DNA of 32,000 bases from Candidatus Saccharimonadota bacterium. GTDB lineage: Bacteria > Patescibacteriota > Gracilibacteria > BD1-5 > UBA2023. The stretch spans positions 300,001-332,000 of the forward strand of contig OY970170.1 in assembly GCA_963706795.1 (NCBI GenBank). Reading direction: 5' to 3'. Shown here piece after piece: positions 10,956 to 30,624 of the stretch. Numbering within the stretch: the stretch's first letter is position 1; the number at the start of each line of letters is the position of its first letter. The position numbers and the translations under genes were made by a program. The notes under the pieces are model-generated. The model ran no database searches, was not told where the DNA came from, and was given only the letters and a program-made list of their open reading frames with translations.

Positions 10956-12035
10956 TTATAATATAGTTTTGAAATGATCTTCTATAGCTTTTATTCATAC
11001 TGACCTAAGCTTCTTCATAGACTTTATAGCATTCATTGATAAGGCATCGTACGTATCTTCTGAGATTAATTGTATTTTGAAGATGAGATTGGAAAGCTCT
11101 AGAGGATTTGTAAAGAGAAATCCATTATGCCCGTCTATTATGATATCACGGTGTCATTCTACGTCTGAAACGATTGGCATAATACCATGTGACATTGCTT
11201 CTATAAGACTATAGGAGAGTCATTCCATGAGGCTTGCTGAGATCATGTACTTACTTTTTCGCAAATATCCCATAGCTTCATCGTTGCTTAGTCTTCATAA
11301 AAATTGAGCCGTAGGATAGAGAGACATCCATTCGTTCAATTGATAGCCATCTCCTATAAAGAGAATTTTGTCCAACATACCAAGATTGTTAAAGACTCAG
11401 AGCAGGATCTCTACTCATTTGTCCTTGACCATCCTCCCTAGATAAACAAATTCATATTTTTTCGCTTCTACTCAAGATATTTTCTGTGTTCGAAAATTAG
11501 GACAGAGGAGAAGTTTCTCAGATGGAACTTTGAACTGTTCAGAGAGTATGTAGCTCTCTGAGGCTCAACATGAGAGGTAGTACTTTGCTTGTTTGGACAA
11601 AATTTTTTCAAAAATCCATTCTATAAATCTGGTCATTCACATGAATCGTTTAGTCTGAACACAATTAGGACTATGATATACATTACTAATGATTCAGAGC
11701 ATGTACAAGAACCTTGATATCTTTCCAGCGTAGCTCGTATAGCTTATGAGAATATCCGATTGTTTATCTCTAAAAAAATTGATGAAGAAGCAAATATCTT
11801 GGAATAAAAATCGATATGATCTCCGAAGAGGAACATGCGTAATTGTTCCGTATTCCTTGAGAATGTCTTCATTCTCAGCCTGTGTTTCTCCATACCTGTT
11901 TCGTATTTTCTCGGGGAAAAGAAAATGTACTTCAAAACCCATCTGCACGAGTATTGCTGATAACTCCTTCATGGCAACGAGAATGCCTGCGTATGGACAC
12001 TCTGTAATGAGATATATCCTACTTTTCTTGAGCAT
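10956..12035 (-). CDS. GT-B fold glycosyltransferase (GT4/group-1 type), 359 aa
   Basis: I translated it fully by hand and it is open across 9 TGA codons. The C-terminal catalytic region reads SLME-G-LSYSLIEAMSHGIMPIVSDVE-G-HRDIIIDGHNGFLF (EX7E-type). Stop TAA at 10956-10958, 12 nt before the NUDIX ATG. Confidence 0.8.
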
Positions 12036-12849
12036 ATACCTTTTCTATAAATGATATGTCCTTATTTACTTCCACTTCGTATCATTGGGGTTTTCTGAGA
12101 ATGAAAGAAGCCGTGTGCTCGAGTGGTATCACTGGCAAGAATGCGAGCACTCTTTCTCTTGCTAGGTCATATAGGATTTTTCGCTCATGTGCATAGTGGT
12201 CGATTACCTTCTCAAAAAAATGTTCAAAGTCCAGTCAATGATTCACTACTCAGTCAAATACTAATTTGGCCAAATCCTGAGCAGGCTCACTTATGTTTGA
12301 AAATTCCCAATCTATGAGTGTTGGCTTTTGGTTCTCTGCAAACAAGAGGTGTCGAAGACGTAAGTCTCTGTGGACTATAGTAAATTCCCCATGTTTTAAA
12401 TTCCGTATCTGTTTCTCGATCCAATGCTTTATATCGTGATCTAACGGAAACGAAGAGTTCGTAAAATTAATTTTTTCATTCACATATTTTTTCAAATATG
12501 GTATGTATTCACCATGTCCTATTTTTGTACGCAGGTGGGGTTCATTGGATCTAATGAGCCCATGCAACTCAACTGCGCATGTTATCAAATGGTCAAATGC
12601 TTGATCTTTATTCTTTCCTTCAGCCTCAGTGATACACTTCATTTTTACATATCAGTCTCTCACTGAGACCTCTCTTATTTCAGGGGGTTGGAATGAGCTT
12701 CGACCTTGTAGTATATTTGAAACTAACCAACTTGATTCATTTTTTATCTCAAAGCTATTTGGAGTGTATCGTTTCACGAAAATTTGTTCTCAATTTTCTT
12801 GGATAATATCTGTGGAATGCCACTGTTTTAATCATTGAATTTTATTCAT
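12019..12849 (-). CDS. Aminoglycoside-phosphotransferase/choline-kinase-fold small-molecule kinase (276 aa)
   Basis: The catalytic loop IVHRDLRLRHLLF (HxDxxxxN-like) is followed by LIDWEF (a metal-binding D-x-E/D-like segment). The N-terminal extension to the ATG at 12849 reads through three TGA codons. The stop (12019-12021) overlaps the glycosyltransferase start by 17 nt. The substrate is unknown. Confidence 0.65.
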
Positions 12850-12870
12850 AAACATTCGTTAGAATATAAA

Positions 12871-14121
12871 TTACCGTAAGAACCTTTCCTTGGCTTCAAT
12901 GGTGAGGCCATAGCCCACTGAATTAAACGAATCTCAAAAAACAACTCGTCAATTTTTAAATAATTCTCTAATGCGCGACGTAACTATTGGCAGTAACGAG
13001 GAGCCGCCAGTTAAAAACACCGTGTCGATCTTATCAGTAGTTGTTCCAGCTTGAGAAATAGCTTCCATCATCGTGACCATTACAGTATCAAGGCTTGTAT
13101 GAATCATTACTTCGAAATCTTTCCTGGAAAGATTGTAGTGAAAAGGATAGTTGAAAAATTCGAATACGCCTTCGGTATGTTCGCACTTAGAAAGAGCGCG
13201 CTTTGATTTTTCGACTTCCGAAAAATATTCATATCACAGTCTATGATTGTGGGAAATTTCTTGAATTCTTCCAAATCTTTCCTTGTCCTGAGAAATGCGG
13301 TATATATCATCTATAGCTGAAGTTACCTTCTTGGTAGATAATTCATGTATATTCTTCCAATCAGAAAGCATGTAGAAAAACGACGTAGGTACATCAAGTG
13401 ATTTTCAGAGAGAGCTGTATTTGCTGCCTTTTCAAAGAAAATTACAAAAGAAATCATATGATAATCTTTGATCAAAGGCGTCTCATCCAATGTATACCCC
13501 ACTGTTTCAGAGGATATCCATTGATACTTTATTAACCCTCAAAAGGGAGAAGTCGCTCGTTCCACCACCCAAATCAACTATTAGGACTGTTTCGTTCTTG
13601 TCTTCGAGGAGGGTTTCCTGATATGCCTTTGCTGCAGCTAATGGCTCAAATTGGAATTCTATATTCTTGAATCATGCAAGTCTTGCAGCAGACTCTAGGC
13701 GTTTTTGGGCAACTGCGTCTAACTCTTTATTAGTATCATTAAAATGAACCGGTCTACCCATTACTACAGACTGAACACTTTCATTCAATACACCTTCCAG
13801 TCTTTGTTTGATTTCTGATATTATAATTCCTAAAACTTCTGTAAGACTGTGCTCTTTCCCTAATAAGATAGTAGAAATCTCTTCTTTAGTTCAGAGAAAA
13901 GATTTGAGCGATTGAAGGAGTCTACCACTTGATCCTGAGGTAAATCTTCGCATTCATTCCACTCAGATAACAAATTCATTTTCTTCAGTATCAGCAAATA
14001 AAACGGTTCTATCTGCTTGCTTGTCTTCAGACAAATTGATCAATCTATGCTCTACTCAATCAGAATAGCCTATAGTCGAGTTGGTAGTTCAGAAATCAAG
14101 TCACGAAGCAAGCGTTTTCAT
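12871..14121 (-). CDS. Hsp70/actin-fold ATPase, YegD-like (416 aa, lacks a substrate-binding domain)
   Basis: Invisible in the ORF track because of more than 15 TGA codons. The track ORF 13107..13310 is out of frame with it. Motifs: S-G-LDF-G-TTNS (phosphate-1; TGA at 14101-14103 and 14089-14091), FEPLAAAKAY, VDLGGGTSDF, I-G-GDAFD and LTGGSSLLPIV. I translated the whole frame and it is open. Confidence 0.8.
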
Positions 14122-14287: not shown

Positions 14288-14316
14288 CAATAAAAAAACC
14301 TCCGAAGAGGTTTTAG
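14288..14316 (-). terminator. Intrinsic terminator overlapping the stop of the 656-aa gene
   Basis: The minus strand reads aaaacctc-ttcg-gaggttttttta. The stem is short and AT-rich, a T-run follows, and the TAA stop (14313-14315) lies in the 5' arm. Confidence 0.5.
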
Positions 14317-16283
14317 ATTTTTACACCAAGGGCTTCACGAATACCCGTCTCGCTCACCCGATTATCTGGCGGAAGCAAGAATCTACGACTCTGAAGTCAC
14401 TCGAGGAGTGCTTTTTTCTTCTCTGAAACAGGAACCGAGGAATTAATTTCACCATTTTGTGTGCTAAAAAGTGGTGGATCCTTCTTGATGAGACTATTTA
14501 AACTATCAGCAATAGCCTTTTTCTTTGCAGGAGTAAGTTCCTCAGAGAGCTCGATTCTATCAGCTCCATTGCGATGTTCGTTTATGATCCCGAAGAATGT
14601 ATCAAGGAATTCCTGTCCAGCAGCATCGAGTCCAAATTCTTCAGTAAGAATGAGGAGATTTTTGCGAGTGGTTTCGTAGGATTCCTGGTAGATAGACTTT
14701 TTACGGAATGGGTACGAATCAGAATTTTGGAGATCAAATTTTGCTTCGAGTTTCACAATAGCCTCTTTGCGCTTGAGCGCCTCTTCAGGGGTATTTTGTT
14801 CAATATATCGAGCAATCGAATCGAGCCCATTAAAGAAGTCAGCATGTGAAAATGTATCATGCGAAGGGTTCTTTTCAGATTCTTCCATAATACTCTGCTG
14901 GATGACTCACATAAGTTTTGAGTCATTCTTGAGAGCTGCAACCTGTGAACGTGAAAGAGTTTTAAAACTCTCCTGTGGATTATCAAGATCGACTCAGCGC
15001 TCTTTAATAGCAGCGCGAACTTTGTCAGAAGCCTTACCTGCCTGAATCATCGTGCCCGACCACGCATCACGTGCAAGAGCCTGTCTCGATGACTGAAGAT
15101 TTGTTTCGGAAGTCTTAAGTCTCTCAAGTTCCATGCGATCGACGGCCTCTTCTTTAGATAGCCCTTCAATACGAAGTGCAGCTTTTGGACCCAGGATTAT
15201 CGGAATATGAATATCATTCTGATTCATAAACAGACCCTTTCCAGGTACATAGCTTGGGAAAGTACCCTGAGCATCAGATATACCACGAGTTCGCTGACCA
15301 TCTCGATAGATTTCGCGATTAGCATCTAGACCTGTGGCAGTAGCAATATTATACGCTCCAGGAGAAACCTTTGGATCCTCTAAAAGACTCGTCTTAACAT
15401 CTCTAAATCCCGAAGTTGATGAGAGCTTTGCAAACTGTGCCTCAAGCTCTGCATGATAGGTTTCCGGAGCTTTCGAAATGAAATCAGCACGAAAATGCAA
15501 GATAGTTCGCATCTCCGCCTTCTCATTGATCTCCTTGCTCACCGCAGCACGATCTTGTTCTGGAATTTCTGTGATTTTCTTTCCATGCTCAGTCTCCCAA
15601 ATCTTCGTCTGTGCTTCAAGATATTTACGGAATTCAACATCATATTTTCCACCAATAATCTCAGCAGGAGATTTTCAAGGAAAAGCCTTTGAAATGAGCT
15701 CTTTGGTGGCTTTGAGTTCTACGAACATTGCTTCATTAGAGATCTTAGTTTTCTCTGCAATACTCTCTTCCGCTACTCTCGCCTGATCGCTTTGAAGAAC
15801 TACACTATTCAGCTCAGTTTTTTCTTGAATTTTAGTTAACTGCTCCTGTGCAGCAGCATTTTGCATTTCAGTTGCAGTATTTTGCATCTTGTTCAATACA
15901 TCTTCCTTCTTTACTACTTCATCTTTCATTTCCAAAGAGGACTCTTTAAGAACAAATGACTTAGATTCTTTTTGTGCTGCCTCTAATATGCCTTGCCACT
16001 TTTTTAAAAATAACTCAATATCCGCTTGAAGGCTTTTAGAATCAGCAATATCAATTGTATCAATCAAATCAGTTTGAAATTTTGTGAGTTGTGTATTGCG
16101 GACTGAATCATCAGTGTACGACTGCTGCAGTGCTGTAAACACAGCCTGCACGTTTGCTTTAATACTCTCAGGTAATCAACTAAGGTCTAGTGTGAGTGAC
16201 GGAACAACTTTACCAATCTCCTTCTCAGAAGAAGCAGGAGATGACGACTGTAATACTGGGCTGTTTTGGGACAATTCGTTCAT
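14313..16283 (-). CDS. Hypothetical protein, 656 aa, with a coiled-coil-rich N-terminal half and no recognisable domain
   Basis: ORF fragments 15675..16151, 14994..15542 and 14397..14888 share one frame and are joined by TGA codons at 15675, 14994, ~14900 and 14397. ATG at 16283 (MNELSQNSPVLQ...). True TAA at 14313-14315. I saw no NTPase, nuclease or signal-peptide motif. Confidence 0.65.
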
Positions 16284-16355: not shown

Positions 16356-17255
16356 CTAATTTTTTAGAGACACTGTCTGTAAAGATGCTGTACTTGGGCT
16401 TGATGAAAATTCCAGAAGATCACCTTTTCCTGAGCGTACAACACCAAGAAGAGATTTTATCTTGGCAACATAGCTTGGATGCTTATTACGAGATTCAAAA
16501 CGTGCAATGACCATCGGGAAGATAACATCAGCGCGCGCGTATGCTTTATTTAAAGCTTCAATATCTTTACTGCTTTGAGTAAGCGATGTTTTTCCTGAGC
16601 GAAAATCAGAAAAGATTACTCTCAACTTTTCTGATCATTCTCCAATTTCAGTCATGAGTTTTTCAGCAACTTCTGCAAGCTCGTTATCTTTTATAACCTC
16701 CAGTTTTTCAAGTCTAATTTTCTCTTTCTCGGCAGCTGTAATTTTCATTTCTTCCTGAGCTGTCGCAATTACTACATTAGCTTGTTCAATGCTAGAATTA
16801 GCATTAGCAGTCCTCGTTTTAGCATTTTCAATATCTATCTTAGCTTGATTTTCTCTTTCAGTGGCACTCAATTTCATCTCGCAAGCATCGTAATAGTCAT
16901 TGAAATCACGATCAATCTTAGTCTTAATCTTAGCGAGCTTCTCTGGACTGTTAGCACCTGCCTCTTCAGCCTTAATCTTTTCGAGAAGATGAGCAGTACC
17001 TTCTTTGGCAGTCGCAATACATTCAGCTCGCTCACGTGTCTTATTCTGCTGAATTTCTGCTGCTGCGGCAGGATTAATATTCATGAGACTTGCAGCTGAA
17101 AGAGTAACTCATGCAGCCACCATTTTTACTCCATCCTTTCCTTCTTGAAATGCATCTTTTGCGCGTTGAAGCAAGGAGGACTTCTCTCACCCTAAAGAAG
17201 CGACTTTAACGTCACCGGAGGCGATCCCGCCACCAAATGTGTTCTTATCACCCAT
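16356..17255 (-). CDS. Hypothetical coiled-coil protein, 299 aa
   Basis: ORFs 16635..17084 and 16356..16625 are in one frame across TGA 16635. The N-terminal extension to the ATG at 17255 crosses two more TGA codons, and there is an upstream in-frame TAA. It has a Gly-rich head (GDKNTFGGGIASGD), a hydrophobic stretch (VKMVAAGVTLSAASLMNINPAAAA) and then ~150 aa of Ala/Glu/Lys heptad-like sequence. Confidence 0.6.
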
Positions 17256-17314: not shown

Positions 17315-18475
17315 TTAGAACTTTCGCACCTTATCTATACCAGCTTCTATTCTTTTGCCAAGAATATCGTTCACCTCTTTGCTTGTGAGCTGGACTACTG
17401 ATGATCGCGATCCTTTTTGCTTGAGACGCAATTTGTTATTTGCGTCATTTACGAGTACTGAAATATCACCAAATGCTTCAATAGTTGGATAATCTTGTGG
17501 AGCATAGTAAATAAGCGAGTTCGCACGATCCCATGGGAGACTGAGTTGCATACGCATAGTCTCCGCATTTGGATTAATGATAGCTACCATGCGTCCAATA
17601 GCGCTCATCTGATCAAATCCTCACATAAGTCCAGCAATATCATTGCCAGTGCGCTTCTTATGAAATGCAAATTGCACTGCATCAGCCATGTATTCGATGC
17701 CCGTTAATACCGCCTGGGCAGTTTTTTTACCAAATAAATCCTGCTGAATTAGGTGTGGGAAGAGTGCATTGCAACGCTCTATCGCATACGCACGGAAACT
17801 CGGATTGCGGAGATATTCGAGAAGATTTTCTTTTGGCTTTTGAAGTGTATTTACGTATTCCTGATATTCCTGATCATTATAAGGTCGCGTCACTCCATTT
17901 TGAGTAAAACGAAGCCAGTCTCTATCTCCTTCAGCAGAAAAGAGCTTGAGCACAATCGATTCAATATTTTTATCAGTCACTTCGCTTGCACCAATGACCT
18001 CTGTAAGACCTTTTCAGAGAGTTTTTTTCTTGAGAAGTTCTCCACTGTTATAAAAAATCGAGAGTCCGACTTTTGCTGGAACGAAAGGCAGGACTTTGAT
18101 TCTGCGAGATTCCAGTGCGGGATTCTTTTCGCGTGCGTCTACTTCGCGTCTCTGAATTTCTAAGAATGTTTTGAAGGTCTTATTTAAGATTCCGTAATCC
18201 CCCATCATCCGAAGCCGAAGATGAATCAGCGACTCGAGCGCATCAGGATTGAGCGACTTCTGCATGAGTGCCCCTGGAGAAGTATTTTTTTCTCGGATCA
18301 GGGTCTCAAGAGGATCTGGCGAATGGGCAGTCTTATGAGAATCACCAGCTGCCGAAGAATCTCCGGAAATCACAGAAAAAACGCCGAGCGCAAAAGCCGT
18401 CTGTACAATATTAGCCTTGAGAGCAGAGGATTTTTTGGATGCGTTATTTTGATTGGAAGATTCTAGTGAATTCAT
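17315..18475 (-). CDS. Hypothetical secreted protein, 386 aa
   Basis: ORFs 18014..18475, 17621..17980 and 17315..17608 are in one frame, joined by TGA 18014 and TGA 17621. An N-terminal signal-like segment (ALKANIVQTAFALGVFSVISGDSSAAG) is present. True TAA at 17315-17317. No family recognised. Confidence 0.65.
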
Positions 18476-18500: not shown

Positions 18501-18530
18501 AGTATACTAATAGAATACGAGGAATGTCAA
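18501..18530 (-). promoter_or_regulatory. Candidate sigma-70-type promoter for the three-gene orphan cluster
   Basis: The minus strand reads TTGACA (18530-18525), an 18-nt spacer, then TATACT (18506-18501), 25 nt upstream of the ATG at 18475. This is pattern match only. Confidence 0.4.
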
Positions 18531-18658: not shown

Positions 18659-21600
18659 TTAAGAAATACTTTCTTCTCATCCCTGATTATCACTCCTAGC
18701 AAGCAATTCAGTTAATAAGATTTCATACCTATGCAATTCTGAAGCCTGAGTCTCCATATCTACTTCTTTGAACATTGCTAGCCAGTTAGTAAATCAAACC
18801 TTAGACCCATTAAGTGCATATCAAAGTGTCATCAATCGGAAAGGATGGCCTCTATCTCTCTTGTAGTCTTTTATAAACTGCAGATTGATAGATTCTGGTA
18901 ACATAGGCACAACTGATTTTTGGGCATACTTTTGTATTCAATGAAATTGATATGGGTCATCTGCTTGTTCTACCTCCTCTAAATAAAGTTGAGATTGAAG
19001 CATAGACTCAGAGATCATTTCGACGCCCGAATTCATACTGTGTATGCTTTCAGATAGCTCTGATAGAGATTCAAATCATAAACTTTCTAGGTCGATTGAA
19101 CCATTATCAATATCAGCACTGATATTGATAATCAGTTGAGTCCAATATCAATAAAGTCTTTTTAAGGCTATTAAGCTAAGATTTTCAAACGTAAGATGAC
19201 ACAAGTTCGAAATAAAAATCAACTGCACTCAGCGTTGTGTTATCGAATCATGTCCCGCAAACCATGCCTCAATATCATCCTTAATTACAGGACGCATTAA
19301 TCGAATTTTACCAAAATAATTGAGGCATCTCAGAAAAGAGGTGGTGAGCCTTCAATCAAAGATGACATCTTCAATGGCTGGAACTAACTTCTTATAAAGT
19401 GTCAACGGATCACATTTTTCCAAAATATGATCCAGTACCAACTTAAATGCAGGACTATATTCTTTGTGATCAAAATTCCCCATATTAAGGATTGATTCAA
19501 CTGAGGGTAAATCTTCGACATCTAAAGACTGACTTAAGAAGTAATGAGCACGGAAAAAATCCTCAATTGACTGACTTGCAAAGTCTAATGAGTTATCACT
19601 AGATCTATGCACATAGCCTAACTCAGATATATCTTCAAATAGGTCTAAATCGACATCTCATTGGCCATGATTTGAGAGAAGTTTCTTATGCGCAAAGTCA
19701 GCTAAGCGCAGGAGGTATCTATTTAGTCTAAGAGATGCTATATCTGGGTTAATTTTAGATAAAGGGATATCACTCTTATTCCTTAGATGTTTATAAAAAA
19801 TATCCGCAATAAGAAGCTTGTATATTGTATAGCCTGATTTATCGTGAATTTCAGTCAATCATTCTTGATTGGATAATAAATTAAAAAATAAAATCATCGT
19901 TAAAGGATTCTCACTTAGTTGGACATTAGAACTAACTCTATTGTAAGCCTGAATTTGCTTTGAATACTCTTCAAAGCTCTCTACTCTTCTGAGCAGAAAC
20001 TTATAATGATCTATCGACTTAAATTCTAAAAGTTTCCAGCCTCTTTCTCGACTTTCCAAATCAATTATATTTGATTTGGCTGATAGAAAGATAGGGCATT
20101 TAAGATGTAAAACTGAATCTAATATAATTTTTTGCTTTCAATAGGAAACCTCGTCGATTCAATCGATAATAATAATCGAATTATCTTGTGCGTCTTGCTC
20201 AAGGACTTGGCGTATATCCTGATCTAACATAGAGCCGAAATCACATCCCTCATAGAATCTTACAGGCCTGCTTATCTGCAAATAGTCTCCTAGCAAGAAA
20301 GTTGATGCAACTGCAGCAGAAAGTATGCTCTTGCCAGCTCAAGTACCACCAATAAAAAGATAATGATTCTCAGAGTTTACTTCGTTGGTATAAAACTTTC
20401 ATAGCACTTCTCGGAATGTAATTATCTCAGTACCAATTACTGAATGATTTACGAGTTCTATCTCATCAAGCATATCCGCTAAAAAAAGAGGATGAGCTTT
20501 CTGGATAGTAACATCTACCGAACTTCGAATGATTCGACTAATCTTACGTAGGCTTTGGATTTGTTTTATAATATCAATTCCAAAGTCTAATGTTGTCAGC
20601 CTAGAAATATCTAGCGAGTCAAAGTATCGGTAAATATTATGCAACCCTATGCTACTAAATCGATCGTTCTTTCGCAGCGATATAAGATATAGGGACTCAA
20701 AACAAAATTTGTGATGCCTCGAGAATCACCAGAGAATCTTATATCCATGTATCCCCCTTCTTAAAAGTTGATAGACAATTGCGGACTCTAAATTTGGAAT
20801 TTTCTCACTTTCGTTTAACCAATCCTCTAATTTCTCTGCATTTTCATTTAGTAGCCTGAAATTGATTAAATTCTGCAAATCGACGTAATCAAGACTGGTT
20901 TGTGAAAATACCCGAGAACACTCATCGTAGTTTTTTGGAGTCACTACAAACAATCAATTTTGTTCAAGAATTTTTCAGTTTGCATTGAGATCAATACAGG
21001 CAATGCCCTCTTTAATAAAGTTGTTACATTCCCTTTTTATCTCCAAAGTGGATTTTCATCTAGTTAAAGCAAATACAGGAGCAAATGAGCTATTTGATAC
21101 TATAACGAATAGACTTCCTCACTGTTTTATATCTGCATTATCATAAAATAGCGCAGATATTTCAGTTATTGAATTTAGCAGCTCATCTATGTACGATTCT
21201 GATTTACTTATTCAAGATAGCTGAATATTGGAAATTTTTGCGTTAGGAAATTTCTCGACTAATTGCAGAGCAGTTTGTTGATTTCGCTTCTTTCATGAGG
21301 AATCAAGCAAAATCTCAACAGGATATCAAGGCTTAAATACAGCACTATAAATATCTTCCTCCAAATTTAATTCATCAAAATTCTTTACAGGAAGAAGAGT
21401 ATCAAGTTCATGCAAGGTCTTTGCTACCGACGGATTTCAAACAAAGAAGAAGTCTAATCTTTCTTTGTATTCAATATACTGCGAACTGTCCTGATAATAA
21501 GGGAAATGTCTTATGAAAAGTAGTTTCTTCTCGCAATAATTCGTGCCAAGTATATTTTTAATATCTTGCTGATAACCAGACTCTCATAGCAATACTCTTG

Positions 21601-21817
21601 CATAGCTGTCTGCATCGGTTTTTTTTAATAAATCATTCTCTGATGGAGCGCTAAAAAGCGTGGACTCGAGGAGATCCGCGAGCTCGTTAAATCCTTCGAT
21701 AATTCTATCTACAGAATTCACCACTGACTCCTCTAAGCTCTTCAAATGAGCTTGTTCCTCTGCTAGAGTTCTTTCTGGATTTTGTAAATATCCCTCTTCA
21801 TTATCAGCATTCATTTC
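18659..21817 (-). CDS. NACHT-type STAND P-loop NTPase, 1,052 aa, with an unassigned ~490-aa N-terminal domain and a ~450-aa helical C-terminal region
   Basis: Seven ORF-track fragments (21584.., 20726.., 20399.., 19859.., 19658.., 19352..) plus untracked stretches share one frame. I translated the full length by hand, found 24 in-frame TGA codons and no TAA or TAG until 18659-18661. Walker A: FIGGT-G-AGKS (20327-20350). Walker B: IIIID-G-IDEV (20150-20176), the NACHT hhhhDGhDE form. Downstream: NPLTMILFFNLL and SLDFASQSIEDFFRAHYF (F-x-H/S-x-S-x-Q/E-E/D-F-h-A-A-like). An alternative GTG start at 21838 overlaps the upstream gene by 14 nt. Confidence 0.8.
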
Positions 21818-21824
21818 GTAAGCC

Positions 21825-23435
21825 TTAAATGGTACCACCCCTCACAATCCTTGCCACTCTAAAACTCTCAGGATGTCTCAGTGCCACAAAAAAATCAGAT
21901 ACTCCACCACGACAAACTATATCCAATTCTTCCCCGAAAGCCTTCTTTGTAAGTCTTTTAATTGGGGTCAGGAGTTTGGAAGCCATGTCACTTTTATTTG
22001 CGGTATAGCTAGACTTAGAGAGTCCGGAAATATTCACCTCATTTTTCCCAGAGAAAAATGCCATAAGTAATTCAATTGTAGCCTGTTGTGTAGGAATTTC
22101 CTTGGAAGAAACACGTTCACCACGCACGTAGATTCTTCGCGAAATAAGATCCAACAAAAGATCCTCTTCGTGAAAAGTAGACTCATCATATCGGATAATT
22201 CTTCTTGTTCCATTCAGCCATTCACACGTCACATAATTCCCCTTTGCAGAGAATTCCGAAACTATACCTTCTTCAACTGACTGTTCGATTTTTGGGGCCA
22301 TTGGAAGGTCTTTTCCGCTACTTAGAAACTCAATCGACATACGCGAATAGCTTATCTTCATCTGCTCAAAGGTCTTCGTAAGTACTTCATCGGCAGAAGG
22401 TCCAGAAAAGTACACAATGTAAGATCCACCATATCTTGAGTGATACAATGGTAAGAGCTCTATGAGATTTTGCTGATGAGAATTGAGCGAGGAGTAGGTC
22501 TCAAAAAAGTCACTCTCAAACGAAGTCATGCCTAGCTGAGCATGTATGAGTGAATTATATTTCTTGATTACAGAAAAGAAGTCAGCAACAACTCATGTTT
22601 TATGTGAATCAGCGATTAATTGGTGTAATCACTCAATATACTCATTAGACAGCATAGAATTGACCTCTCGAAATTTCTCAAATCTATCTAGTTGAGTCGA
22701 AATTTCCTCTTCAGCCATAGCAGTATGACTCAGTAGGCCCGAAAATATTACTGCGTACTGTACGCCATATTTACCAAATACTTCAGAAGTTTTGTCAGCA
22801 TACGCCTTCTCTAGAGTTCAATATTGAAACACCCGAGGGCATGCAAGAGGTTTGAGCGACTGGTAAAATAAGGCTTTTGGAGGATTTTTTGTAAAAATAC
22901 TCCAAATCTCTGACGCAGTATTAATGAGTTGCATCATAGTATGATCTGACTCATCCAATATTGATGTAAGTGTATGCGCATAAGAAGAATCCGCATTTAA
23001 GAACTCTATTACCATGGCGATGCCAAGTGATACATGCCCAGAAAATGCAAAGCACATGCCTCGACTTACCTCAGAGAAAAATGACACTCGTGCACCACGA
23101 TATATCTCTTGTCAGAGCAGAAAAGTCTCTAGTGCATCGAGTGCGGGCGCAAGCGAGCTTTTAGAGAAATCTGTAGTTACAAATTCATTGGTATGGTTAC
23201 TTCTTTCAGTGACGGCACCAAATTGAATGCCTCTATCTCAAGCAGTCGAGGTAAATGTTATGCCGATATATAAACGCTTATCTATATTTGCACGAGCATG
23301 TAGGAAATTTTCATCATATCTCAATGCAACATTTCCTAAACAAAATGAGTATGGTATTGAAAAAATGAGTTCATTTGTCTGAAAAAATTCTTCGTAAATA
23401 TTACGATAATCTGTTTGTAGAGATGAAGGATTCAT
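21825..23435 (-). CDS. Fusion protein, 536 aa, of an N-terminal GHMP-kinase-like domain with degenerate motifs and a C-terminal OmpR/PhoB-type winged-helix DNA-binding domain
   Basis: ORFs 23238..23444, 22818..23087 and 21825..22529 are in one frame, with 5 TGA codons. GHMP collinearity: motif I-like SIPYSFCLGNVALRYDENFLHARANID, motif II-like SEVSRGMCFAFSGHVSLGIAM (in place of PxGSGLGSSAA), and motif III-like SRYGGSYIVYFSG. The C-terminus LDLISRRIYVRGERVSSKEIPTQQATIELLMAFFSGKNEVNISGL...KSDMASKLLTPIKRLTKKAFGEELDIVCRGGVSDFFV follows the Trans_reg_C pattern. True TAA at 21825-21827. The fold assignments come from by-eye motif matching. Confidence 0.65.
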
Positions 23436-23504
23436 TGCACACAATGATAATACAATTACTAATGTGACAATGATATTAGGAATGCGACATTCAAAGAAAA
23501 AGAA

Positions 23505-23540
23505 AATTCGCGGAAATTTTTCTTTAAATTTCCGCGAATT
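23505..23540 (-). terminator. Intrinsic terminator downstream of the EEP gene
   Basis: A perfect 15-bp inverted repeat: aattcgcggaaattt (23505-23519), loop ttcttt, aaatttccgcgaatt (23526-23540). On the minus strand it is followed by tttctttttcttt. It separates the EEP gene from the wHTH/NACHT pair. Confidence 0.7.
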
Positions 23541-23562
23541 CGATTAATTCAAGAGAAAAGCC

Positions 23563-24309
23563 CTACATCCCCACCTCCACCAAAAGTGCCGCATGATCAG
23601 ACACGTCATCCTCTAGCACTCTAAAATCTAAAATATTCAGCTCCTTAGAAGCAATCGCATAATCAGCAAAGCGCGAGCCTGGTTTTGCATACCTTGGAGT
23701 ACGAGTCGAGGTGATTTTGTATTCAGCGATGAGATCGCGGCGGCCATCTGTGAGCATTTCGAGGCTCTCAGTATCGGGATTGAGATTGAAATCACCGATG
23801 ATCAAAACTGGTGTAGTGACAGTTTCGAGGAGAGAATTGATTCGTTCACTTTGGAGTATTCGAGCAGGAATATCGTGCTTTCCACCAAGTGCGTTCCAGA
23901 TTCCGTGGAAATTTACGATAGTGAGATTGTCCGTTGTGAGAATCTGGATCTTGCGAGCATGGTCGGCATTTTCGAGTTCGAGGAAATCTATGAATTGTGC
24001 GGGACCTGCGACCTGGTACTCTTGATAGGTTGTTTGGATATTTTTGCGTACAAACATGGCTATTCCGTAGACCTCATGCATGATTGAGGCAAAATAAACA
24101 TTAAAATCAGGAAGTATTTTTTGAATATTTGAGAGCATATTGATGTCGTGCAGCTCTCCTTTGGTGAACTGTACAAGCGTCTTACCTGATGGATCATTAT
24201 AGAATTCCTGGAAGCAAAAAATATCCGTGTCCTGAGCGTGTTTCTGAATAAATTCATAAATATCAGGGCGCACTCGTGCACCCCAACAATTGAGGGAAAT
24301 AATTTTCAT
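23563..24309 (-). CDS. Endonuclease/exonuclease/phosphatase (EEP) family protein, 248 aa
   Basis: An intact ORF with no TGA. Motifs: SLNCWG, FCFQEF, IIGDFNLNP and the C-terminal SDHAALLVEV (catalytic His). Confidence 0.85.
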   Translation of the reverse strand: MKIISLNCWGARVRPDIYEFIQKHAQDTDIFCFQEFYNDPSGKTLVQFTKGELHDINMLSNIQKILPDFNVYFASIMHEVYGIAMFVRKNIQTTYQEYQVAGPAQFIDFLELENADHARKIQILTTDNLTIVNFHGIWNALGGKHDIPARILQSERINSLLETVTTPVLIIGDFNLNPDTESLEMLTDGRRDLIAEYKITSTRTPRYAKPGSRFADYAIASKELNILDFRVLEDDVSDHAALLVEVGM

Positions 24310-24386: not shown

Positions 24387-26120
24387 CTATTCCTTGACCC
24401 AGCCTGATTGAAGATCAACCATTGAGGCGTAGTTTCCACCGAGTGCGAGGAGTGTCTCATGATCTCCGTCTTCGATCACTTTTCCAGCTTCGATAACGAG
24501 GATTCTGTCGGCTTCTTTGACAGTTTGGAGACGGTGTGCAATGACGATGACCGTTCGGTCTTTGAAGAGTTCGTGGAGCGCGAGCGAGACAGTGTGCTCA
24601 GAGACAGAATCCAATGCAGAAGTTGGCTCATCCAAGAGGAGAATTTTTGGGTTTTGCAAAAAGATTCGAGCGATTGCAAGTCGTTGACGCTCACCACCAG
24701 AGAGACGAACTCCACGTTCACCGATTTCGGTTTTTAGGCCGTCAGAGAGATCAAGGATAAAATCCGCATGGGCATTTTTGATAGCAATTTGGAGGTCGTT
24801 TTCGGAAGGGATTCTTCAGAGTCCATAGACGAGATTATCCTCAATGGTTCCATCAAATACCTGTGGATCTTGCGAGAGATAGCCAATATTTTTGTAATAG
24901 GTTGAGAGCGATAATTCTGAGAGATCTTGACCATCCACTAAGACTTGGCCATCTGATGGCTTCAAACTACGAAGAAGCAGCTTCATGATCGTCGATTTCC
25001 CAGCACCAGAATGCCCAATGAGTGCTGTTCGTTTAACTCATTCGATCGTGATAGAAAAATCAGAGAAAATCGCTCTATTTTCGGTATATGCAAAAACAAC
25101 ATTTCGGAACTCAATATCACCGTTTTTGAATACAAAATCAGTTCAGGTATCGTAATTTTCGATAGTACCGTTTTGGAGAATTGCAAAAAGTGCCATGAAA
25201 CTGTCCCGATTCCCCATGTAATCACGGAATATTTGTACGAGATTGCTGAGCGTCTGCTGAAAAAGCAGTACTAAGCTCGAAAGTCCAGCTATGAGTGCAA
25301 GTGAAACACTTTGTAGGCCATTATTCAGCGCATACGCATAAAGCGAAATAAGCATAATAGCCGAGAAAACTCATGGAAGACTGAACGAGGCAAAAAGATG
25401 ATTATTATATGACTGATCATACTCACCGTATTTTACATATTGTTCAGTGATATATGTTTGTTCCTCGGGAAACATTCTATTTTGAAGCACTGAAAAACGA
25501 GACATGAGCAGTCGTGTGAGTCGCCTATGGATATTTGTCTCAGTTTCAATGCGCTTGGTTCTTGGGATACGTGATCTTGCCATCAAAAAGTAGGTAATTA
25601 CTACGATTATCAAGAACAATAGCACAAATCATACTGACATTTTCCACGAAAAAGCGGAGAGCGATATCGTGATAGTTACAAAGGTGATGATCAGTCTTGG
25701 GAACTCGTAAATAGTAATCAAGAACATATCAGACCATGCCATAGATCAACGAAGCAGGAGCGAAAGAAGCTTCCCTGTTCAATACGATTCAAATTTTTCT
25801 GTCGGTAAAAGAAGCAGTGAACGAATGGCATGATTTTGGATATACGCGAGATATTTGGGGCGCATTTCCGTAATTCCCCAATGACGCCATGATGCAACGA
25901 TTGCGTAGTAAACAACGATTGTTGCCACAAATTGCCAAAGGAGATGATTCAGCAACTTCGAATCTTGTGCAGCGAGTGCATTTTGAAAGTGAGATACAAA
26001 CCAAACAGAAAAAAGCAGAAAACTCGAATATGTAATACACACGATCAAACCACGGATAAATACCCATGGTTTATTTTTCAGAGGCAAGAAAAAAGTCTGG
26101 AGCGGCGTAAGTGGAGACAT
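24387..26120 (-). CDS. ABC exporter with fused transmembrane and ATP-binding domains (MsbA/type I exporter-like), 577 aa
   Basis: The fragments 25779..26120, 25371..25625, 25143..25355 and 24387..24659 share a frame. Walker A GHSGAGKST, signature LSGGERQRLAIAR, Walker B ILLLDEPTSALD and H-loop IAHRL. TM helices in the N-terminal 300 aa. Confidence 0.9.
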
Positions 26121-29235: not shown

Positions 29236-29781
29236 CTATACGACAATCTCTCGGAGGCATTTTTCTAATTCCTCCATGTTAGCAATCCCCTTACATGGAA
29301 AGCGCTTGGGATCGGTTTTATAGCGATCATCGAGATACTGGTCAGCGAGTTTATCAGACCAACCACCTGTTCCCTTCATGACAAAGACGGGAATTTTTTT
29401 CTGATATGCAACGGTAATCTCATTGAGAGTTCCGCTTCCACCACCAACTGTAACAATAGCATCGCAACTTGAGACAAGCACAAATTCTCGTCCTCCGCCT
29501 CGTTCCATGCCGGTACACACCATACAGTCAGTGAGTGAGAGCATTTCACCCCAAACATCTGGTGTTTTACCGTACGTCACACCCATTACAATTCCGCCAA
29601 CTGATTTTGCTCCGCGAGCAGCACTTGTTGAGAGGCTATCGCTGTCTTTTTCGGCTCCATATACCATAACGCTTCCGAGCGAAGCAATGAGCTTGCCAAT
29701 CTCGTAGGCCATGTCAGCAATGGTGGATTCATATCCGAGATCTGCTGCGGATCCCATGACTCAGATTTGTAGTTTTTTCAT
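29236..29781 (-). CDS. LOG/TIGR00725-like Rossmann-fold nucleotide-binding protein, 181 aa
   Basis: MKKLQI-G-VMGSA at the N-terminus, and VGGGSGTLNEI matching the PGGxGTxxE-type motif of the LOG/lysine-decarboxylase-like family. Confidence 0.75.
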
Positions 29782-29796: not shown

Positions 29797-30624
29797 TTAG
29801 AATGTTTCTATATGAGATCGAACCTGCTCCATAAACACCCTCACCTTCTCACTATCTATCAATTCCTCAAAGGAACGGAGATTAATCTCATGATCTGGAA
29901 GGGTTTGAGTCTTGAAGTAGGTGCCGACTATTGCACTATCACAAACTGAGAGTACTTGAGTTGCATTTTCCAGGGTGACACCGCTTCCAGAAATAATAAA
30001 AGCATCTGGACAGACTGATCTGACAGCTTGAAGGTCCGAAGCAAGTGGCTGATCCCCCGTCCACTTCCCTGTAATGATGAGTCCATCGGATCATTGCTCT
30101 ATAGCACGAATAGCTGATTGTTCGAGAGAATCAGGATTGAGAATCTCAGAATGTTTTACGTGAATATCAGTGAATATCTGAATATGTTCAGCCTGAAGTT
30201 GCTTGCGATATGCGAGAACTTCTGCTGGGTTTTCTGTGATTTCGTAGCCGTAGTGCGTTCGAATATGATCGACAAAGACAGGGATTCTCACAAATTGAAA
30301 GTCAGCAAACCGTGCAATTGAGAGTGCACTCTTCCAGTCATTCCAGAGACAACAGATGCCGAGCGGTAGTTTTGTGGCCTTACGAAGTTCGATACAAATT
30401 GCAGTGAATTGCACGAGTACTTCTGTATCGAGAAGTCTTGTATGTGGAAGATCGTAATTATTTTCGATCATGATAGCATCAATACCGCCATCGACGAGAG
30501 ACTTGAGGTCTGCGAGTGCTTTTGCGAGAATGGTCTCGTGTGGAAGTGAGTCCTTAAAGCCAATAAGCGGAGGCAAATGGATCATTCCTATGATTGGATG
30601 TTTTGATGGGAAGATTGATGGCAT
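29797..30624 (-). CDS. BtpA/SgcQ-family TIM-barrel protein, 275 aa
   Basis: The N-terminus PIIGMIHLPPLIGF is typical of BtpA. ORF 30091..30624 continues through TGA 30091 to ...SGSGVTLENATQVL...MEQVRSHIETF with a TAA at 29797-29799. The last ~17 codons include repeat copy B. Confidence 0.75.
29819..29869. repeat. Copy B of the ~50-bp direct repeat, inside the 3' end of the BtpA-like gene
   Basis: See copy A. Here the repeat encodes ...LIDSEKVRVFMEQVRS. In the corresponding frame copy A would encode SEKVRVFMEKVRAY followed by a stop. Confidence 0.7.

What the first reader, a model, noticed from the sequence alone, without database searches (positions are those of the whole stretch)
18659..23435. 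Tightly coupled two-gene module: a GHMP-like/OmpR-wHTH fusion followed by a 1,052-aa NACHT STAND NTPase (candidate novel defence or signalling system)
The two genes are bounded upstream by a perfect 15-bp terminator (23505-23540) and downstream by the promoter region of the next cluster. The second gene starts either 7 nt after the first gene's TAA (ATG 21817) or overlaps it by 14 nt (GTG 21838), which suggests co-expression. The second protein has the NACHT Walker A and hhhhDGhDE Walker B, plus the downstream NPL... and F-x-S-x-x-E-D-F-x-x-A motifs. Bacterial NACHT and other STAND NTPases (bNACHT, Avs) are established anti-phage sensors. STAND NTPases joined to OmpR-type wHTH domains (AfsR/SARP-like) are established transcription regulators. 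Here the wHTH sits on a separate protein, fused to a kinase-like domain with eroded catalytic motifs, and I do not recognise this arrangement. Both a defence reading and a regulatory reading are open.
Basis: partly seen in the sequence, partly recalled or inferred. Interest (0 to 1): 0.85.

Follow-up and report, generated by a model that had tools for sequence, protein, structure and literature searches.

The report
NLR-like switch paired with pseudokinase regulator
In a tiny bacterium that reads TGA as glycine, a kinase-shaped protein with a possible DNA-binding tail sits directly upstream of a large NLR-type molecular switch with a phosphatase-like head; the pairing recurs in related genomes, has not been described, and may link sensing to gene regulation or defence.

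Summary
The two genes are real once TGA is read as Gly (code 25, shown directly). Gene A is 21825-23435 (-), 536 aa. Gene B is 18659-21814 (-), 1051 aa, starting 10 nt after A's stop.

A belongs to a large unannotated family (454 cluster representatives), found here almost only in Gracilibacteria/Absconditabacteria-type MAGs. A high-confidence model of a family member has a GHMP-kinase fold (Foldseek E 1e-13). The window copy's phosphate-loop motif is eroded. The C-terminal domain has OmpR-like topology, but every similarity test was non-significant, so the wHTH is unproven.

B is a divergent NACHT NTPase. A family profile hits NLRP3/NLRC4 (E 3e-7), and the D[GAS]hDE signature is present. B's C-terminus is variable helical/HEAT repeats.

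Co-occurrence is subfamily-specific. B follows A in 16 of about 25 loci of the window-like A lineages, often after a Nudix gene, and in 0 of 42 loci of the other A paralogs.

Best reading (about 0.35): an NLR-like sensor that signals to a GHMP-fold regulator through a phosphorylated ligand. A defence role remains open. It matches no known defence model.

The parts
23504..23541 (-). Hairpin with a 16-bp stem and T-tract. It lies after the stop (23563) of the upstream Exo_endo_phos gene and before gene A.
   Evidence: Only the loop, right arm and T-tract are conserved in L001 (27/27 nt); the left arm is absent there.
23436..23524 (-). Conserved 5' region of gene A. It probably holds the promoter and possibly a regulatory site.
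   Evidence: 81% identical (72/89 nt, one 1-nt gap) to the region upstream of the L001 ortholog. Direct repeat A(A/T)TATCATTGT at -40 and -14 from the ATG, with parallel changes in L001. The repeat alone is only marginally unusual (about 4% of shuffles) and the motif is not enriched in the window.
21825..23435 (-). Gene A: 536 aa, 5 TGA = Gly codons. Member of an unannotated family restricted here almost entirely to Gracilibacteria/Absconditabacteria-type genomes.
   Evidence: 454 representatives at E <= 1e-3; leave-out HMM E 4.8e-77; NCBI name: 'hypothetical protein'.
22311..23435 (-). Gene A residues 1-375: GHMP-kinase-fold domain.
   Evidence: Model of family member P0007, pLDDT 93.8. Foldseek hits mevalonate kinase 1kvk at 1.9e-13, plus galactokinases and phosphomevalonate kinase, with target-normalised TM 0.57-0.68. 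One member gives sub-threshold NCBIfam matches to PMK/MK.
23034..23075 (-). Degenerate GHMP motif II (phosphate-binding loop), SEVSRGMCFAFSGH, residues 121-134.
   Evidence: The housekeeping-context paralog lineage has LSELPRGVGLGFGS, and the B-linked lineage has LSE..RGHSFGF.GT.
22407..22451 (-). GHMP motif III-like glycine loop, PLYHSRYGGSYIVYF, residues 329-343.
   Evidence: The assignment to motif III is my own reading of the sequence.
21828..22310 (-). Gene A residues 376-536: the most conserved domain of the family. It is an alpha/beta domain with OmpR-like topology and may be a DNA-binding winged helix.
   Evidence: Model of window residues 377-536, pLDDT 88.6. No significant PDB or viral fold match; the best is BaeR at E 0.89. 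Sequence profile against PDB finds nothing. hhalign against PhoB/ArlR gives P 0.024. Invariant residues across the family are Q, S, Y, K, K, P, G.
21815..21824 (-). 10-nt A-B spacer (GGCTTACGAA) with no terminator.
   Evidence: The spacer is 8 nt in L001.
18659..21814 (-). Gene B: 1051 aa, 24 TGA = Gly codons. Divergent NACHT-clade STAND NTPase with three parts.
20834..21571 (-). Gene B residues 82-327: histidine-phosphatase (PGAM)-like domain. R102, H103 and R177 are invariant in the family. The window copy has RHF instead of RHG and lacks the second His.
   Evidence: The N-terminal family profile hits the putative phosphoglycerate mutase 3eoz_A at E 2.8e-5, aligning 'RiylvRHG' and 'aRikqsa'. 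Leave-out HMM E 2.9e-10. Motif comparison.
19514..20374 (-). Gene B residues 481-767: NACHT module. It contains Walker A GGTGAGKS (20327-20350), Walker B IIIIDGIDE (20150-20176), sensor-1 position FLSAKSN (20069-20089), ENPLTMIL (19889-19915) and the winged-helix motif LDFASQSIEDFFRAHYF (19538-19588).
   Evidence: The D[GAS]hDE criterion is from Kibby et al..
18662..19414 (-). Gene B residues 801-1051: helical C-terminal region and the most divergent part of the protein. Presumed sensor region.
   Evidence: 42% identity to the L001 ortholog, against 57-65% for the other domains. Relatives carry HEAT repeats here (L010: HEAT_2 at 3.5e-60), and total lengths range from 1025 to 1813 aa.
18501..18530 (-). 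Promoter-like site of the next gene cluster. It marks the downstream boundary of the A-B unit.
   Evidence: TTGACA-18-TATACT, 11/12 matches. A TTGACA...TATAAT pair sits at the equivalent place in L001.

Best explanation
Genes A and B form a co-transcribed, lineage-specific signalling pair.

B is an NLR-like (NACHT) NTP-dependent switch. Its variable C-terminal helical/HEAT region senses an input. Its N-terminal histidine-phosphatase-like domain is the output.

A is a GHMP-kinase-fold protein whose kinase site has decayed in this lineage. It acts as a ligand-binding pseudokinase, and its highly conserved C-terminal winged-helix-like domain delivers the response, most likely by binding DNA.

The two communicate through a phosphorylated small molecule, or through a phosphorylation state, that B's phosphatase-type domain removes or binds and that A's GHMP domain reads. 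In the more typical loci, an upstream Nudix hydrolase acts on the same ligand pool.

Shown: the genes, the code, the GHMP fold at family level, NACHT and PGAM-like homology at family level, and subfamily-specific adjacency.

Inferred: co-transcription, ligand sensing, DNA binding, any A-B communication, and the nature of the input (phage, host/prey or metabolic).
For: Same strand with a 10-nt gap and no terminator between the genes. A terminator lies upstream and a separate promoter downstream.

The pair is retained in L001, with A 76% and B 56% identical. A is followed by a B-family gene in 14 of 26 loci of the related A subfamily and in 2/2 of the window's clade, always on the same strand and mostly 1-165 nt away. 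None of the 42 informative loci of the other A subfamilies has one.

GHMP fold. Decayed motif II. The C-terminal domain is the most conserved part of A (79% against 71-75% elsewhere; invariant columns). All three weak similarity hints point to OmpR/PhoB effector domains.

B has NACHT homology, a PGAM-like N-terminus with invariant RH...R, and a fast-evolving repeat C-terminus.

A Nudix gene precedes A in at least 10 B-linked-subfamily loci. Nudix, kinase-fold and phosphatase-fold proteins all handle phosphorylated small molecules (my own knowledge).

The A family includes a paralog in conserved gyrB-rpoD-ruvA-A-lepA synteny (gene identities read from the sequences; only the ruvA-like one was scanned, giving HhH motifs). 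That fits a native regulator class rather than a mobile defence gene. B uses TGA-Gly heavily, and 14 TGA positions are shared with the ortholog, so it is a long-term resident.
Against: DNA binding by A is unproven. No significant wHTH match was found by Pfam, PDB sequence profile, Foldseek or hhalign.

No ligand is known. There is no direct evidence of an A-B interaction, and no multimer model could be run.

About 7 of 21-23 informative loci of the window-like subfamily have A without B. A therefore does not need B.

The window's B lacks the second catalytic His, has RHF instead of RHG, has Lys in place of the sensor-1 Arg, and has Ser in place of the winged-helix His. Its enzymatic output may be impaired.

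The reverse test (is B ever found without A?) could not be done.
Confidence: 0.35

Rival explanations
1. B is a self-contained NLR-type conflict (anti-phage or anti-invader) protein. Its C-terminal repeats recognise a foreign protein, NACHT oligomerisation follows, and the N-terminal phosphatase-like domain acts as the effector by depleting an essential phosphorylated metabolite or nucleotide. A, and Nudix where present, are accessory enzymes of the same nucleotide-centred defence system, or are simply the neighbouring regulator.
For: The three-part layout (enzymatic N-terminus, NACHT, C-terminal repeats) is the standard layout of bacterial NACHT defence proteins (Kibby et al.).

B evolves faster than A (56% against 76%), fastest at the C-terminus at 42%. 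B occurs as tandem duplicates in L009, L016 and L033. It is present or absent among related genomes.

Two family members give weak NCBIfam similarity to the NACHT antiphage proteins HyoA (1e-4) and EruA (0.01). Gene B has the lowest GC in the window.
Against: There is no PADLOC hit beyond a marginal P-loop match (mad8, E 1.6e-3), and no PHROGs hit.

B holds a fixed position downstream of a vertically inherited gene across deep divergence, and the neighbours are housekeeping-type genes rather than a defence island.

Phosphatase is not mentioned as an N-terminal effector in either STAND/NACHT survey I read. The window copy has lost predicted catalytic and sensor residues. No relatives were found in viral contigs.
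Confidence: 0.25
2. This is a metabolic gene cluster. Nudix, a GHMP-type small-molecule kinase (A) and a PGAM-type phosphatase (B's N-terminus) together salvage or interconvert a sugar-phosphate, isoprenoid or nucleotide-derived metabolite. The NACHT and repeat parts of B only regulate the enzyme.
For: All three folds are typical of small-molecule phosphate metabolism. GHMP fold. PGAM-like. NUDIX. The housekeeping-context A paralog keeps a near-canonical motif II (LPRGVGLGFGS) and lies among core genes.
Against: Window A's motif II has lost two loop glycines, and no canonical motif I is recognisable. No Pfam or NCBIfam enzyme model is reached. The most conserved part of A is the non-enzymatic C-terminal domain. 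I know of no metabolic enzyme fused to a 700-aa NACHT-repeat module, and the window and L001 loci have no Nudix next to A.
Confidence: 0.12
3. There is no functional link. A and B are neighbours through inherited gene order only, and each works on its own.
For: A persists without B in about a third of the window-like loci, and the largest A subfamily never has B. No interaction evidence exists.
Against: Adjacency with the same orientation and short gaps survives divergence down to about 25% identity in A and 16-18% in B, while the flanking genes differ between loci. Within the sampled loci, B-family genes were seen only next to this A subfamily.
Confidence: 0.1

Closest known systems
Bacterial NACHT (NLR-related, bNACHT) proteins (Kibby et al. 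2022/2023)
   Same: P-loop with the D[GAS]hDE Walker B. A winged-helix extension. The three-part layout of N-terminal enzymatic domain, NACHT and C-terminal repeats. A fast-evolving C-terminus. Family-profile homology to the NLRP3/NLRC4 NACHT modules.
   Different: No PADLOC model matches. The N-terminal domain is histidine-phosphatase-like, a type not mentioned in the surveys I read. The gene is fixed next to a conserved GHMP-fold partner in reduced code-25 genomes. The window copy has Lys at the sensor-1 Arg position and Ser at the winged-helix His position.
STAND-type transcription regulators (AfsR/SARP, MalT, GutR)
   Same: A STAND NTPase coupled to a transcriptional output, with repeat-type sensor domains. 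These are cited as the non-immune STANDs.
   Different: In those proteins the DNA-binding domain is part of the STAND polypeptide, and they belong to other STAND clades. Here the putative DNA-binding domain is on a separate protein fused to a GHMP fold, and B has a phosphatase-like head instead.
Gal3p/Gal1p of yeast and XOL-1 of C. elegans (GHMP-fold proteins used as regulators; my own knowledge)
   Same: A GHMP-kinase fold used as a ligand sensor or switch in gene regulation, with reduced or lost catalysis.
   Different: Those proteins act through protein partners and have no DNA-binding domain. They are eukaryotic and show no sequence relationship beyond the fold.
ROK-family repressors (Mlc/NagC) and other fusions of an enzyme-like sensor to an HTH (BirA, B. 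subtilis PurR; my own knowledge)
   Same: The design principle: a kinase-like or enzyme-like ligand-binding domain fused to a winged-helix DNA-binding domain in one polypeptide.
   Different: ROK proteins use the ASKHA fold with an N-terminal wHTH. Here the fold is GHMP and the C-terminal domain's winged-helix identity is unproven.
Histidine phosphatase superfamily, PGAM/SixA branch
   Same: The catalytic 'RHG' strand and a second Arg motif are aligned, with E 2.8e-5 to the putative phosphoglycerate mutase 3eoz_A. Some relatives have the canonical VRHGES.
   Different: No Pfam His_Phos_1 hit. The second His is not conserved across the family and is absent in the window copy. The domain is fused to a NACHT module.

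Membership tests
NACHT clade of STAND NTPases | Walker A GxxxxGK[ST] | tested here: met
   GGTGAGKS at residues 489-496. G492, G494 and K495 are invariant in the family.
NACHT clade of STAND NTPases | D[GAS]hDE signature in Walker B (Kibby et al.) | tested here: met
   IIIIDGIDE at residues 547-555. D551, D554 and E555 are invariant in the family.
NACHT clade of STAND NTPases | Significant profile match to curated or solved NACHT modules | tested here: inconclusive
   Window B alone gives no Pfam NACHT hit, only AAA at 4.9e-4 and NPHP3_N at 2.6e-3. At family level the test is met: NLRP3 at 2.7e-7 and NLRC4 at 5e-6, from Walker A through the winged helix; the L004 relative scores 28.4 bits on Pfam NACHT against a gathering score of 26.7; and a leave-out HMM aligns window B 481-767 at 2.3e-13.
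NACHT clade of STAND NTPases | C-terminal winged-helix extension with the conserved F-x-H-x-S-F-x-E-[FY] motif, and a sensor-1 Arg | tested here: inconclusive
   The segment is present and collinear (LDFASQSIEDFFRAHYF). However, the His is Ser, and the sensor-1 position reads SAKS instead of (T/G)SR.
Known anti-phage defence systems (PADLOC-DB 2.0 models; bNACHT/Avs) | Match to a defence-system protein model | tested here: not met
   PADLOC gives nothing for A and only mad8 at E 1.6e-3 on the P-loop for B. PHROGs gives nothing.
Known anti-phage defence systems (PADLOC-DB 2.0 models; bNACHT/Avs) | Protection against phage | not testable with these tools
   This needs recoded expression and phage challenge.
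GHMP kinase superfamily | Two-domain GHMP fold | tested here: met
   Shown for family member P0007, about 25% identical to window A: pLDDT 93.8, Foldseek E 1.9e-13 to 1e-10 against mevalonate kinase, galactokinase and phosphomevalonate kinase. Window A matches the family HMM over its full length. The window protein itself could not be modelled whole, because the tool refuses recoded sequences.
GHMP kinase superfamily | Pfam GHMP_kinases_N/C or an NCBIfam enzyme model | tested here: not met
   No hit for window A or for 10 relatives. One relative gives only sub-threshold PMK/MK matches, E 0.002-0.009.
GHMP kinase superfamily | Intact motif II phosphate-binding loop (PxGSGLGSSAA-type) | tested here: not met
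   The window has SEVSRGMCFAFSGH. The paralog lineage keeps LPRGVGLGFGS. Comparison with the canonical motif is from my own knowledge.
OmpR/PhoB-type winged-helix effector domain (Trans_reg_C) | Pfam PF00486 or a significant sequence-profile match | tested here: not met
   No Pfam hit. The domain profile finds no OmpR-family chain in the PDB at E <= 10. hhalign against PhoB+ArlR gives probability 2%, P 0.024. NCBIfam RppA scores E 0.034 on one relative.
OmpR/PhoB-type winged-helix effector domain (Trans_reg_C) | Significant structural match to solved OmpR/PhoB DNA-binding domains | tested here: inconclusive
   The model of window residues 377-536 is confident (pLDDT 88.6). The best PDB hit is BaeR (OmpR family), but at E 0.89, probability 0.21, TM 0.31. 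The order of secondary-structure elements (beta-sheet, a1, b, short a2, long a3, beta-hairpin) fits the OmpR layout; that is my own reading.
Histidine phosphatase superfamily (PGAM branch) | Catalytic RHG motif and second Arg | tested here: met
   R102, H103 and R177 are invariant in the family. The window has RHF. The family profile hits 3eoz_A at E 2.8e-5 with these residues aligned.
Histidine phosphatase superfamily (PGAM branch) | Second catalytic His, and the Pfam His_Phos_1 model | tested here: not met
   Window B has VSNSS where relatives have (V/I)xHKSN. No family member hits His_Phos_1.
STAND transcription regulators (AfsR/SARP, MalT) | DNA-binding domain in the same polypeptide as the STAND NTPase | tested here: not met
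   No HTH-type domain was found in B. The candidate DNA-binding domain is on the separate protein A.

The most novel reading that the evidence does not exclude
GHMP-fold proteins with this conserved C-terminal domain are a previously unrecognised class of transcription factors that is core to the TGA-recoded Gracilibacteria/Absconditabacteria. In one paralog lineage they are the downstream output of an NLR-like receptor. The receptor signals not by oligomerising a toxic effector but by using a histidine-phosphatase domain to change a phosphorylated small-molecule signal that the pseudokinase reads. This would be a new route from a bacterial NLR to gene expression.
Probability: 0.2. Interest if true: 0.85.

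Novelty: new variant of a known kind. Interest (0 to 1): 0.62.

Why it matters
Bacterial NACHT/NLR-related proteins are currently understood as stand-alone anti-phage sensors that carry toxic effectors. STAND transcription regulators carry their own DNA-binding domain.

This locus shows a third arrangement. A NACHT protein with a phosphatase-type head is held next to a separate GHMP-fold pseudokinase that has a strongly conserved, possibly DNA-binding, tail. The pairing is conserved across deeply diverged, genome-reduced, TGA-recoded episymbiotic bacteria.

If the two proteins communicate, this would be a new NLR output mechanism and a new use of the GHMP fold. It would also give a first functional handle on a large protein family (at least 454 clusters at 50% identity) that is annotated only as 'hypothetical'. 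That family appears to be a core, paralogous regulator-like family in these lineages.

The work also shows in practice that standard pipelines miss or truncate these genes. Database copies carry Trp at TGA positions or are cut at TGA.

Tried and rejected
Tool restrictions. I therefore used the TGA-free fragment A 282-536 for the exhaustive search and A 377-536 for the second model. Gene B could not be modelled at all.

Searches that found little or nothing:
- Word-indexed searches found only one B homolog and no A homolog.
- Two-sequence profiles against PDB found nothing.
- Scans with the window+L001 A alignment found nothing in GTDB genomes, viral contigs or JGI metagenomes.
- The 54-sequence alignment was too diverse for a scan.
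- The reverse co-occurrence scan with B relatives in JGI metagenomes found nothing.
- PADLOC and PHROGs: no family.
- The C-terminal domain gave no significant hit in the PDB sequence profile, Foldseek PDB or Foldseek viral.
- Literature: no paper combines Gracilibacteria with NACHT, and the only GHMP+NACHT paper is irrelevant.

Readings I rejected:
- Code 4 (TGA = Trp): rejected because the aligned residues are Gly.
- GTG 21838 as B's start: rejected because of the ortholog alignment.
- A as a housekeeping mevalonate kinase or galactokinase: rejected because there is no model hit, motif II has decayed, there is an extra conserved domain, and the family has paralogs.
- B as a recent foreign import: rejected because it uses TGA-Gly heavily and shares TGA positions with its ortholog.
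- An operator motif upstream of A: the repeat is only marginally unusual and is not enriched in the window, so I make no claim.

A false alarm. A leave-out B HMM first appeared to miss window B. This was caused by HMMER's filters. With --max it scores 54 bits over two collinear domains.

Full report
**1.

Under table 11 the region 18659-23435 breaks into ORFs of fewer than 240 aa. With TGA read as a sense codon, two long co-directional ORFs appear on the minus strand. Across the whole window, the total length of ORFs of at least 150 aa rises from 13 kb to 52 kb.

TGA encodes glycine. In the window's UDP-glucuronate decarboxylase homolog, all five aligned TGA positions fall on Gly of human UXS1: GGAGF, YWG, FGP, LGN, LGWEP. 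TGA also supplies G492 of the Walker A and G552 of the Walker B in gene B. Between the window and its ortholog locus, TGA pairs with TGA 19 times and with GGN 8 times.

- Gene A runs from ATG 23435 to TAA 21825-21827. It is 536 aa with 5 TGA codons.
- Gene B runs from ATG 21814 to its stop at 18659-18661. It is 1051 aa with 24 TGA codons.
- The spacer between them is 10 nt.

The GTG at 21838 exists, but the ortholog alignment begins at the ATG.

The upstream hairpin (23541-23504, 16-bp stem, T-tract) is confirmed. So is a near-consensus promoter after B's stop (18530-18501, 11/12 matches). No terminator lies between A and B.

**2. Gene A.**

Single-sequence searches are blind here. Pfam, PADLOC, PDB and the word-indexed protein search give nothing.

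I therefore searched the TGA-free fragment 282-536 exhaustively. It found 454 cluster representatives at E <= 1e-3 and 174 at E <= 1e-10. Most are 530-620 aa proteins that match over their C-terminal 240 residues. Many are rich in Trp because their genomes were called under code 4. None has a Pfam domain. NCBI calls them 'hypothetical protein'.

A GTDB scan returned 80 loci. All but one (a 2.4-kb contig binned as Ignavibacteriaceae) come from Absconditabacteria/SR1, Gracilibacteria, 'Peribacteria'- or Peregrinibacteria-labelled, or unclassified Patescibacteria/bacterial MAGs. 81 of the 84 loci held at that point showed the strong ORF-length signature of TGA as sense; the other three were borderline.

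A family HMM built without the window and L001 sequences matches window A over its full length (E 4.8e-77).

An AlphaFold model of family member P0007, built on a 54-row alignment, is very confident (pLDDT 93.8, pTM 0.90). Foldseek places it in the GHMP kinases: rat mevalonate kinase at 1.9e-13, then galactokinases and phosphomevalonate kinase. Probability is 1.0, target-normalised TM is 0.57-0.68, and identity is 8-13%. The 'GHMP-like' call is therefore right.

The phosphate-binding motif II is recognisable in the family. It reads LSELPRGVGLGFGS in one lineage and decays to SEVSRGMCFAFSGH in the window protein. 'Eroded' is fair, and a pseudokinase or ligand-sensor role is more likely than catalysis in this ortholog.

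**3. A's C-terminal domain.**

This is the most conserved part of the family. A typical stretch reads ...LTSK(D/E)IxSQxxT(I/V)E(I/L)L...SSYSKNKNEMxGKIxxPLxKL...CKG. Between the window and L001 it is 79% identical.

The window's own residues 377-536 give a confident model (pLDDT 88.6). The order of secondary-structure elements is the same as in OmpR/PhoB effector domains.

No test reaches significance:
- Pfam Trans_reg_C is absent.
- A 24-sequence domain profile finds no OmpR-family protein in the PDB.
- The best Foldseek hit is BaeR, an OmpR-family protein, but at E 0.89 and probability 0.21.
- The viral fold library gives nothing significant.
- One relative has a sub-threshold match to the DNA-binding part of RppA (E 0.034).
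- hhalign against verified PhoB and ArlR domains aligns the expected beta-strands and first helix, but with P = 0.024.

All three weak hints point to the same family, so a derived winged helix is plausible. I put it at about 55%. It is not established.

**4. Gene B.**

Window B has one close relative, P0001 (52% identity by the search tool's BLASTP; 55-56% in my own alignments). It is encoded on L001 immediately after a 536-aa gene that is 76% identical to A.

More distant positional equivalents were recovered from loci that contain A-family genes. They share these features:
- Walker A
- Walker B hhhhD(G/A)(I/L/V)DE
- sensor-1 (T/G)SR
- NPL(L/M)L
- F(I/V)HxSFxE(Y/F)F
- C-terminal repeats

These are shown.

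A 10-sequence profile that includes window B hits the NACHT modules of NLRP3 (2.7e-7), NLRC4 (5e-6) and NLRP1, from Walker A through the winged helix. One member passes the Pfam NACHT gathering score. Six of ten hit NPHP3_N. The D[GAS]hDE signature that defines the clade (Kibby et al.) is present in the window protein.

A leave-out HMM aligns window B in two collinear pieces with filters off: residues 82-327 at 2.9e-10 and residues 481-767 at 2.3e-13. An initial miss was a filter artefact.

Window B is a divergent member. It has Lys at the sensor-1 Arg position and Ser at the winged-helix His position.

**5.

B's N-terminal roughly 250 residues carry an invariant Arg-His, written RHG in most relatives, VRHGES in some and RHF in the window. 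They also carry an invariant second Arg. A 14-sequence profile of this region hits the putative phosphoglycerate mutase 3eoz_A (E 2.8e-5) with these residues aligned to its catalytic motifs.

B is therefore: histidine-phosphatase-like domain, then NACHT, then helical/HEAT repeats. One relative has HEAT_2 at 3.5e-60.

The second catalytic His is not conserved and is missing in the window copy.

Between the window and L001, the C-terminus is the most divergent region at 42% identity. The phosphatase-like domain is 65% identical and the NACHT module 57%.

**6. Co-occurrence.**

Clustering 78 A proteins gave several lineages.

| A lineage | Loci | Loci with >= 1.5 kb downstream | B-family gene downstream |
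|---|---|---|---|
| Largest lineage, 591-620 aa | 40 | 33 | 0 |
| Lineage closest to window A | 26 | 21 | 14 |
| Window clade (window + L001) | 2 | 2 | 2 |
| Smaller lineages combined | 10 | 9-10 | 0 |

- The largest lineage lies in conserved synteny with genes I read as gyrB, rpoD, ruvA and lepA. Of these, only the ruvA-like gene was scanned against Pfam, and it gave helix-hairpin-helix motifs.
- In the lineage closest to window A, the B gene is always on the same strand and mostly 1-165 nt away.
- That lineage also has one locus with B upstream, one with a truncated B at the contig end, and tandem B duplicates in three loci.
- About seven loci of that lineage truly lack any NACHT gene.

In at least ten loci of that lineage, eight of which also carry a B-family gene, a NUDIX-domain gene directly precedes A, giving Nudix-A-B. 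The window and L001 lack it.

So the pairing is real and lineage-specific. A is the stable partner. B is the variable partner that is often duplicated and sometimes lost.

The reverse test, whether B is ever found without A, could not be run.

**7. Context and origin.**

Upstream neighbours are housekeeping-type genes: Exo_endo_phos, an ABC transporter, HisRS, Ham1, an AstE-like gene, SLOG and BtpA. Downstream neighbours are uncharacterised proteins that are also conserved in L001.

Gene B has the lowest GC in the window (0.349). It encodes 45% of its Gly with TGA and shares 14 TGA positions with its ortholog. It is therefore native to a recoded lineage.

Nothing matches known defence models or phage families.

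**8. Mechanism.**

I commit, at about 0.35, to a signalling pair. B acts as an NLR-like NTP-dependent switch. Its repeat region senses an input, and its phosphatase-type head alters or binds a phosphorylated ligand. A's GHMP-fold pseudokinase domain reads that ligand, and A's conserved C-terminal domain converts the result into a response, probably on DNA.

- **Shown:** the gene structures, the code, the folds and homologies at family level, the adjacency statistics, and the promoter/terminator layout.
- **Inferred:** co-transcription, ligand sensing, DNA binding, and the coupling between A and B.

The main rival, at about 0.25, is a stand-alone NLR-type conflict system. It is favoured by B's three-part layout, its rapid C-terminal evolution, its duplications and its patchy presence. 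It is disfavoured by B's fixed position next to a vertically inherited gene, the absence of defence-model hits, the non-toxic type of N-terminal domain, and the loss of key residues in this copy.

A purely metabolic cluster (about 0.12) and mere synteny (about 0.10) are less likely.

**9. Novelty.**

The NACHT part is a new, divergent member of a known clade. The phosphatase-like head, the GHMP-fold partner with an unassigned conserved domain, and their conserved pairing in TGA-recoded candidate-phyla bacteria are not described in the surveys or the literature I could search.

I rate it a new variant of a known kind, with moderate-to-high interest. The case is limited by the lack of any functional evidence and by the unproven DNA-binding domain.

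Noticed in passing
window 23436-23524 (- strand); L001 about 4281-4369: The 89 nt upstream of gene A are 81% identical to the region upstream of the L001 ortholog, more conserved than the proteins. A 27/27-nt identical block covers the loop, right arm and T-tract of the window's terminator hairpin, while L001 lacks the left arm. A direct repeat A(A/T)TATCATTGT at -40 and -14 changes in parallel in L001 (…TTAC). It may be an operator, but it is not statistically compelling.
   Followed up: partly
window 23563-24309 (-); L001 4009-4260: The Exo_endo_phos gene upstream of A has no TGA among its 12 Gly codons (GC 0.434) and is absent from the syntenic site in L001. There, a 3' remnant of the ABC-transporter gene (C-terminus matching window 24387-26120) abuts A's conserved upstream region. 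This suggests an insertion in the window lineage or a deletion/rearrangement in L001.
   Followed up: partly
window 17315-18475, 16356-17255 and 14313-16283 (all -); L001 9463-10500 and 10583-10990: Three uncharacterised genes downstream of B have no Pfam or PHROGs hits. Two have homologs at the same place in L001 (35% and 27% identity). They have their own strong promoter (18530-18501) and alanine-rich or hydrophobic N-terminal segments, so they may be secreted or surface proteins.
   Followed up: partly
loci L019-L055 (e.g. L022 5620-7419, L040 4588-6444): The largest A-family lineage (591-620 aa) sits in a conserved gene order with genes I read as gyrB, rpoD, ruvA and lepA, followed by a conserved 107-aa ORF of unknown function (F1). 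It never has a NACHT neighbour. It keeps a near-canonical GHMP motif II (LPRGVGLGFGS) and may be an active enzyme or a core regulator of these bacteria.
   Followed up: partly
L012-L016, L018, L039, L056, L069, L070 (e.g. L016 7335-7991): A NUDIX-domain gene of about 220 aa (Pfam E 4.4e-13; the sequence looks IPP-isomerase-like, 'AHVWI..QKRS..K..W..SAAGH') directly precedes the B-linked A genes in many loci. It also sits between tandem B copies in L009 and L033. It is absent next to A in the window and in L001.
   Followed up: partly
L009, L016, L033 (B duplicates); L005, L008 (A duplicates): B-family genes are tandemly duplicated in three loci and A-family genes in two. B lengths vary from 1025 to 1813 aa because of variable C-terminal repeat regions.
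   Followed up: partly
protein database entries P0001, P0002, P0004-P0006: Public gene calls for these organisms are distorted by the recoding. P0001 carries Trp at all 26 TGA positions (called under code 4). P0002 is a 234-aa truncation of the window's own gene A that starts after a TGA. Many family members look Trp-rich for the same reason.
   Followed up: yes
window 12019-14121 (-): A 416-aa Hsp70-like protein (Pfam HSP70 E 6e-34) lies next to a 278-aa APH-type phosphotransferase. This unusual pairing was not examined further.
   Followed up: no
window 29236-29781 and 29797-30624 (-): A SLOG cluster4 (LOG-like) protein lies next to BtpA. In L001, BtpA sits directly upstream of the A-B pair, so gene order between the two genomes is rearranged.
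   Followed up: no
window 9000-14000 and 19000-22000: Two low-GC stretches (0.35-0.37, against about 0.42 elsewhere). The first covers sugar-nucleotide and glycosyltransferase genes. The second is gene B. The TGA share of Gly codons rises as GC falls across genes.
   Followed up: partly
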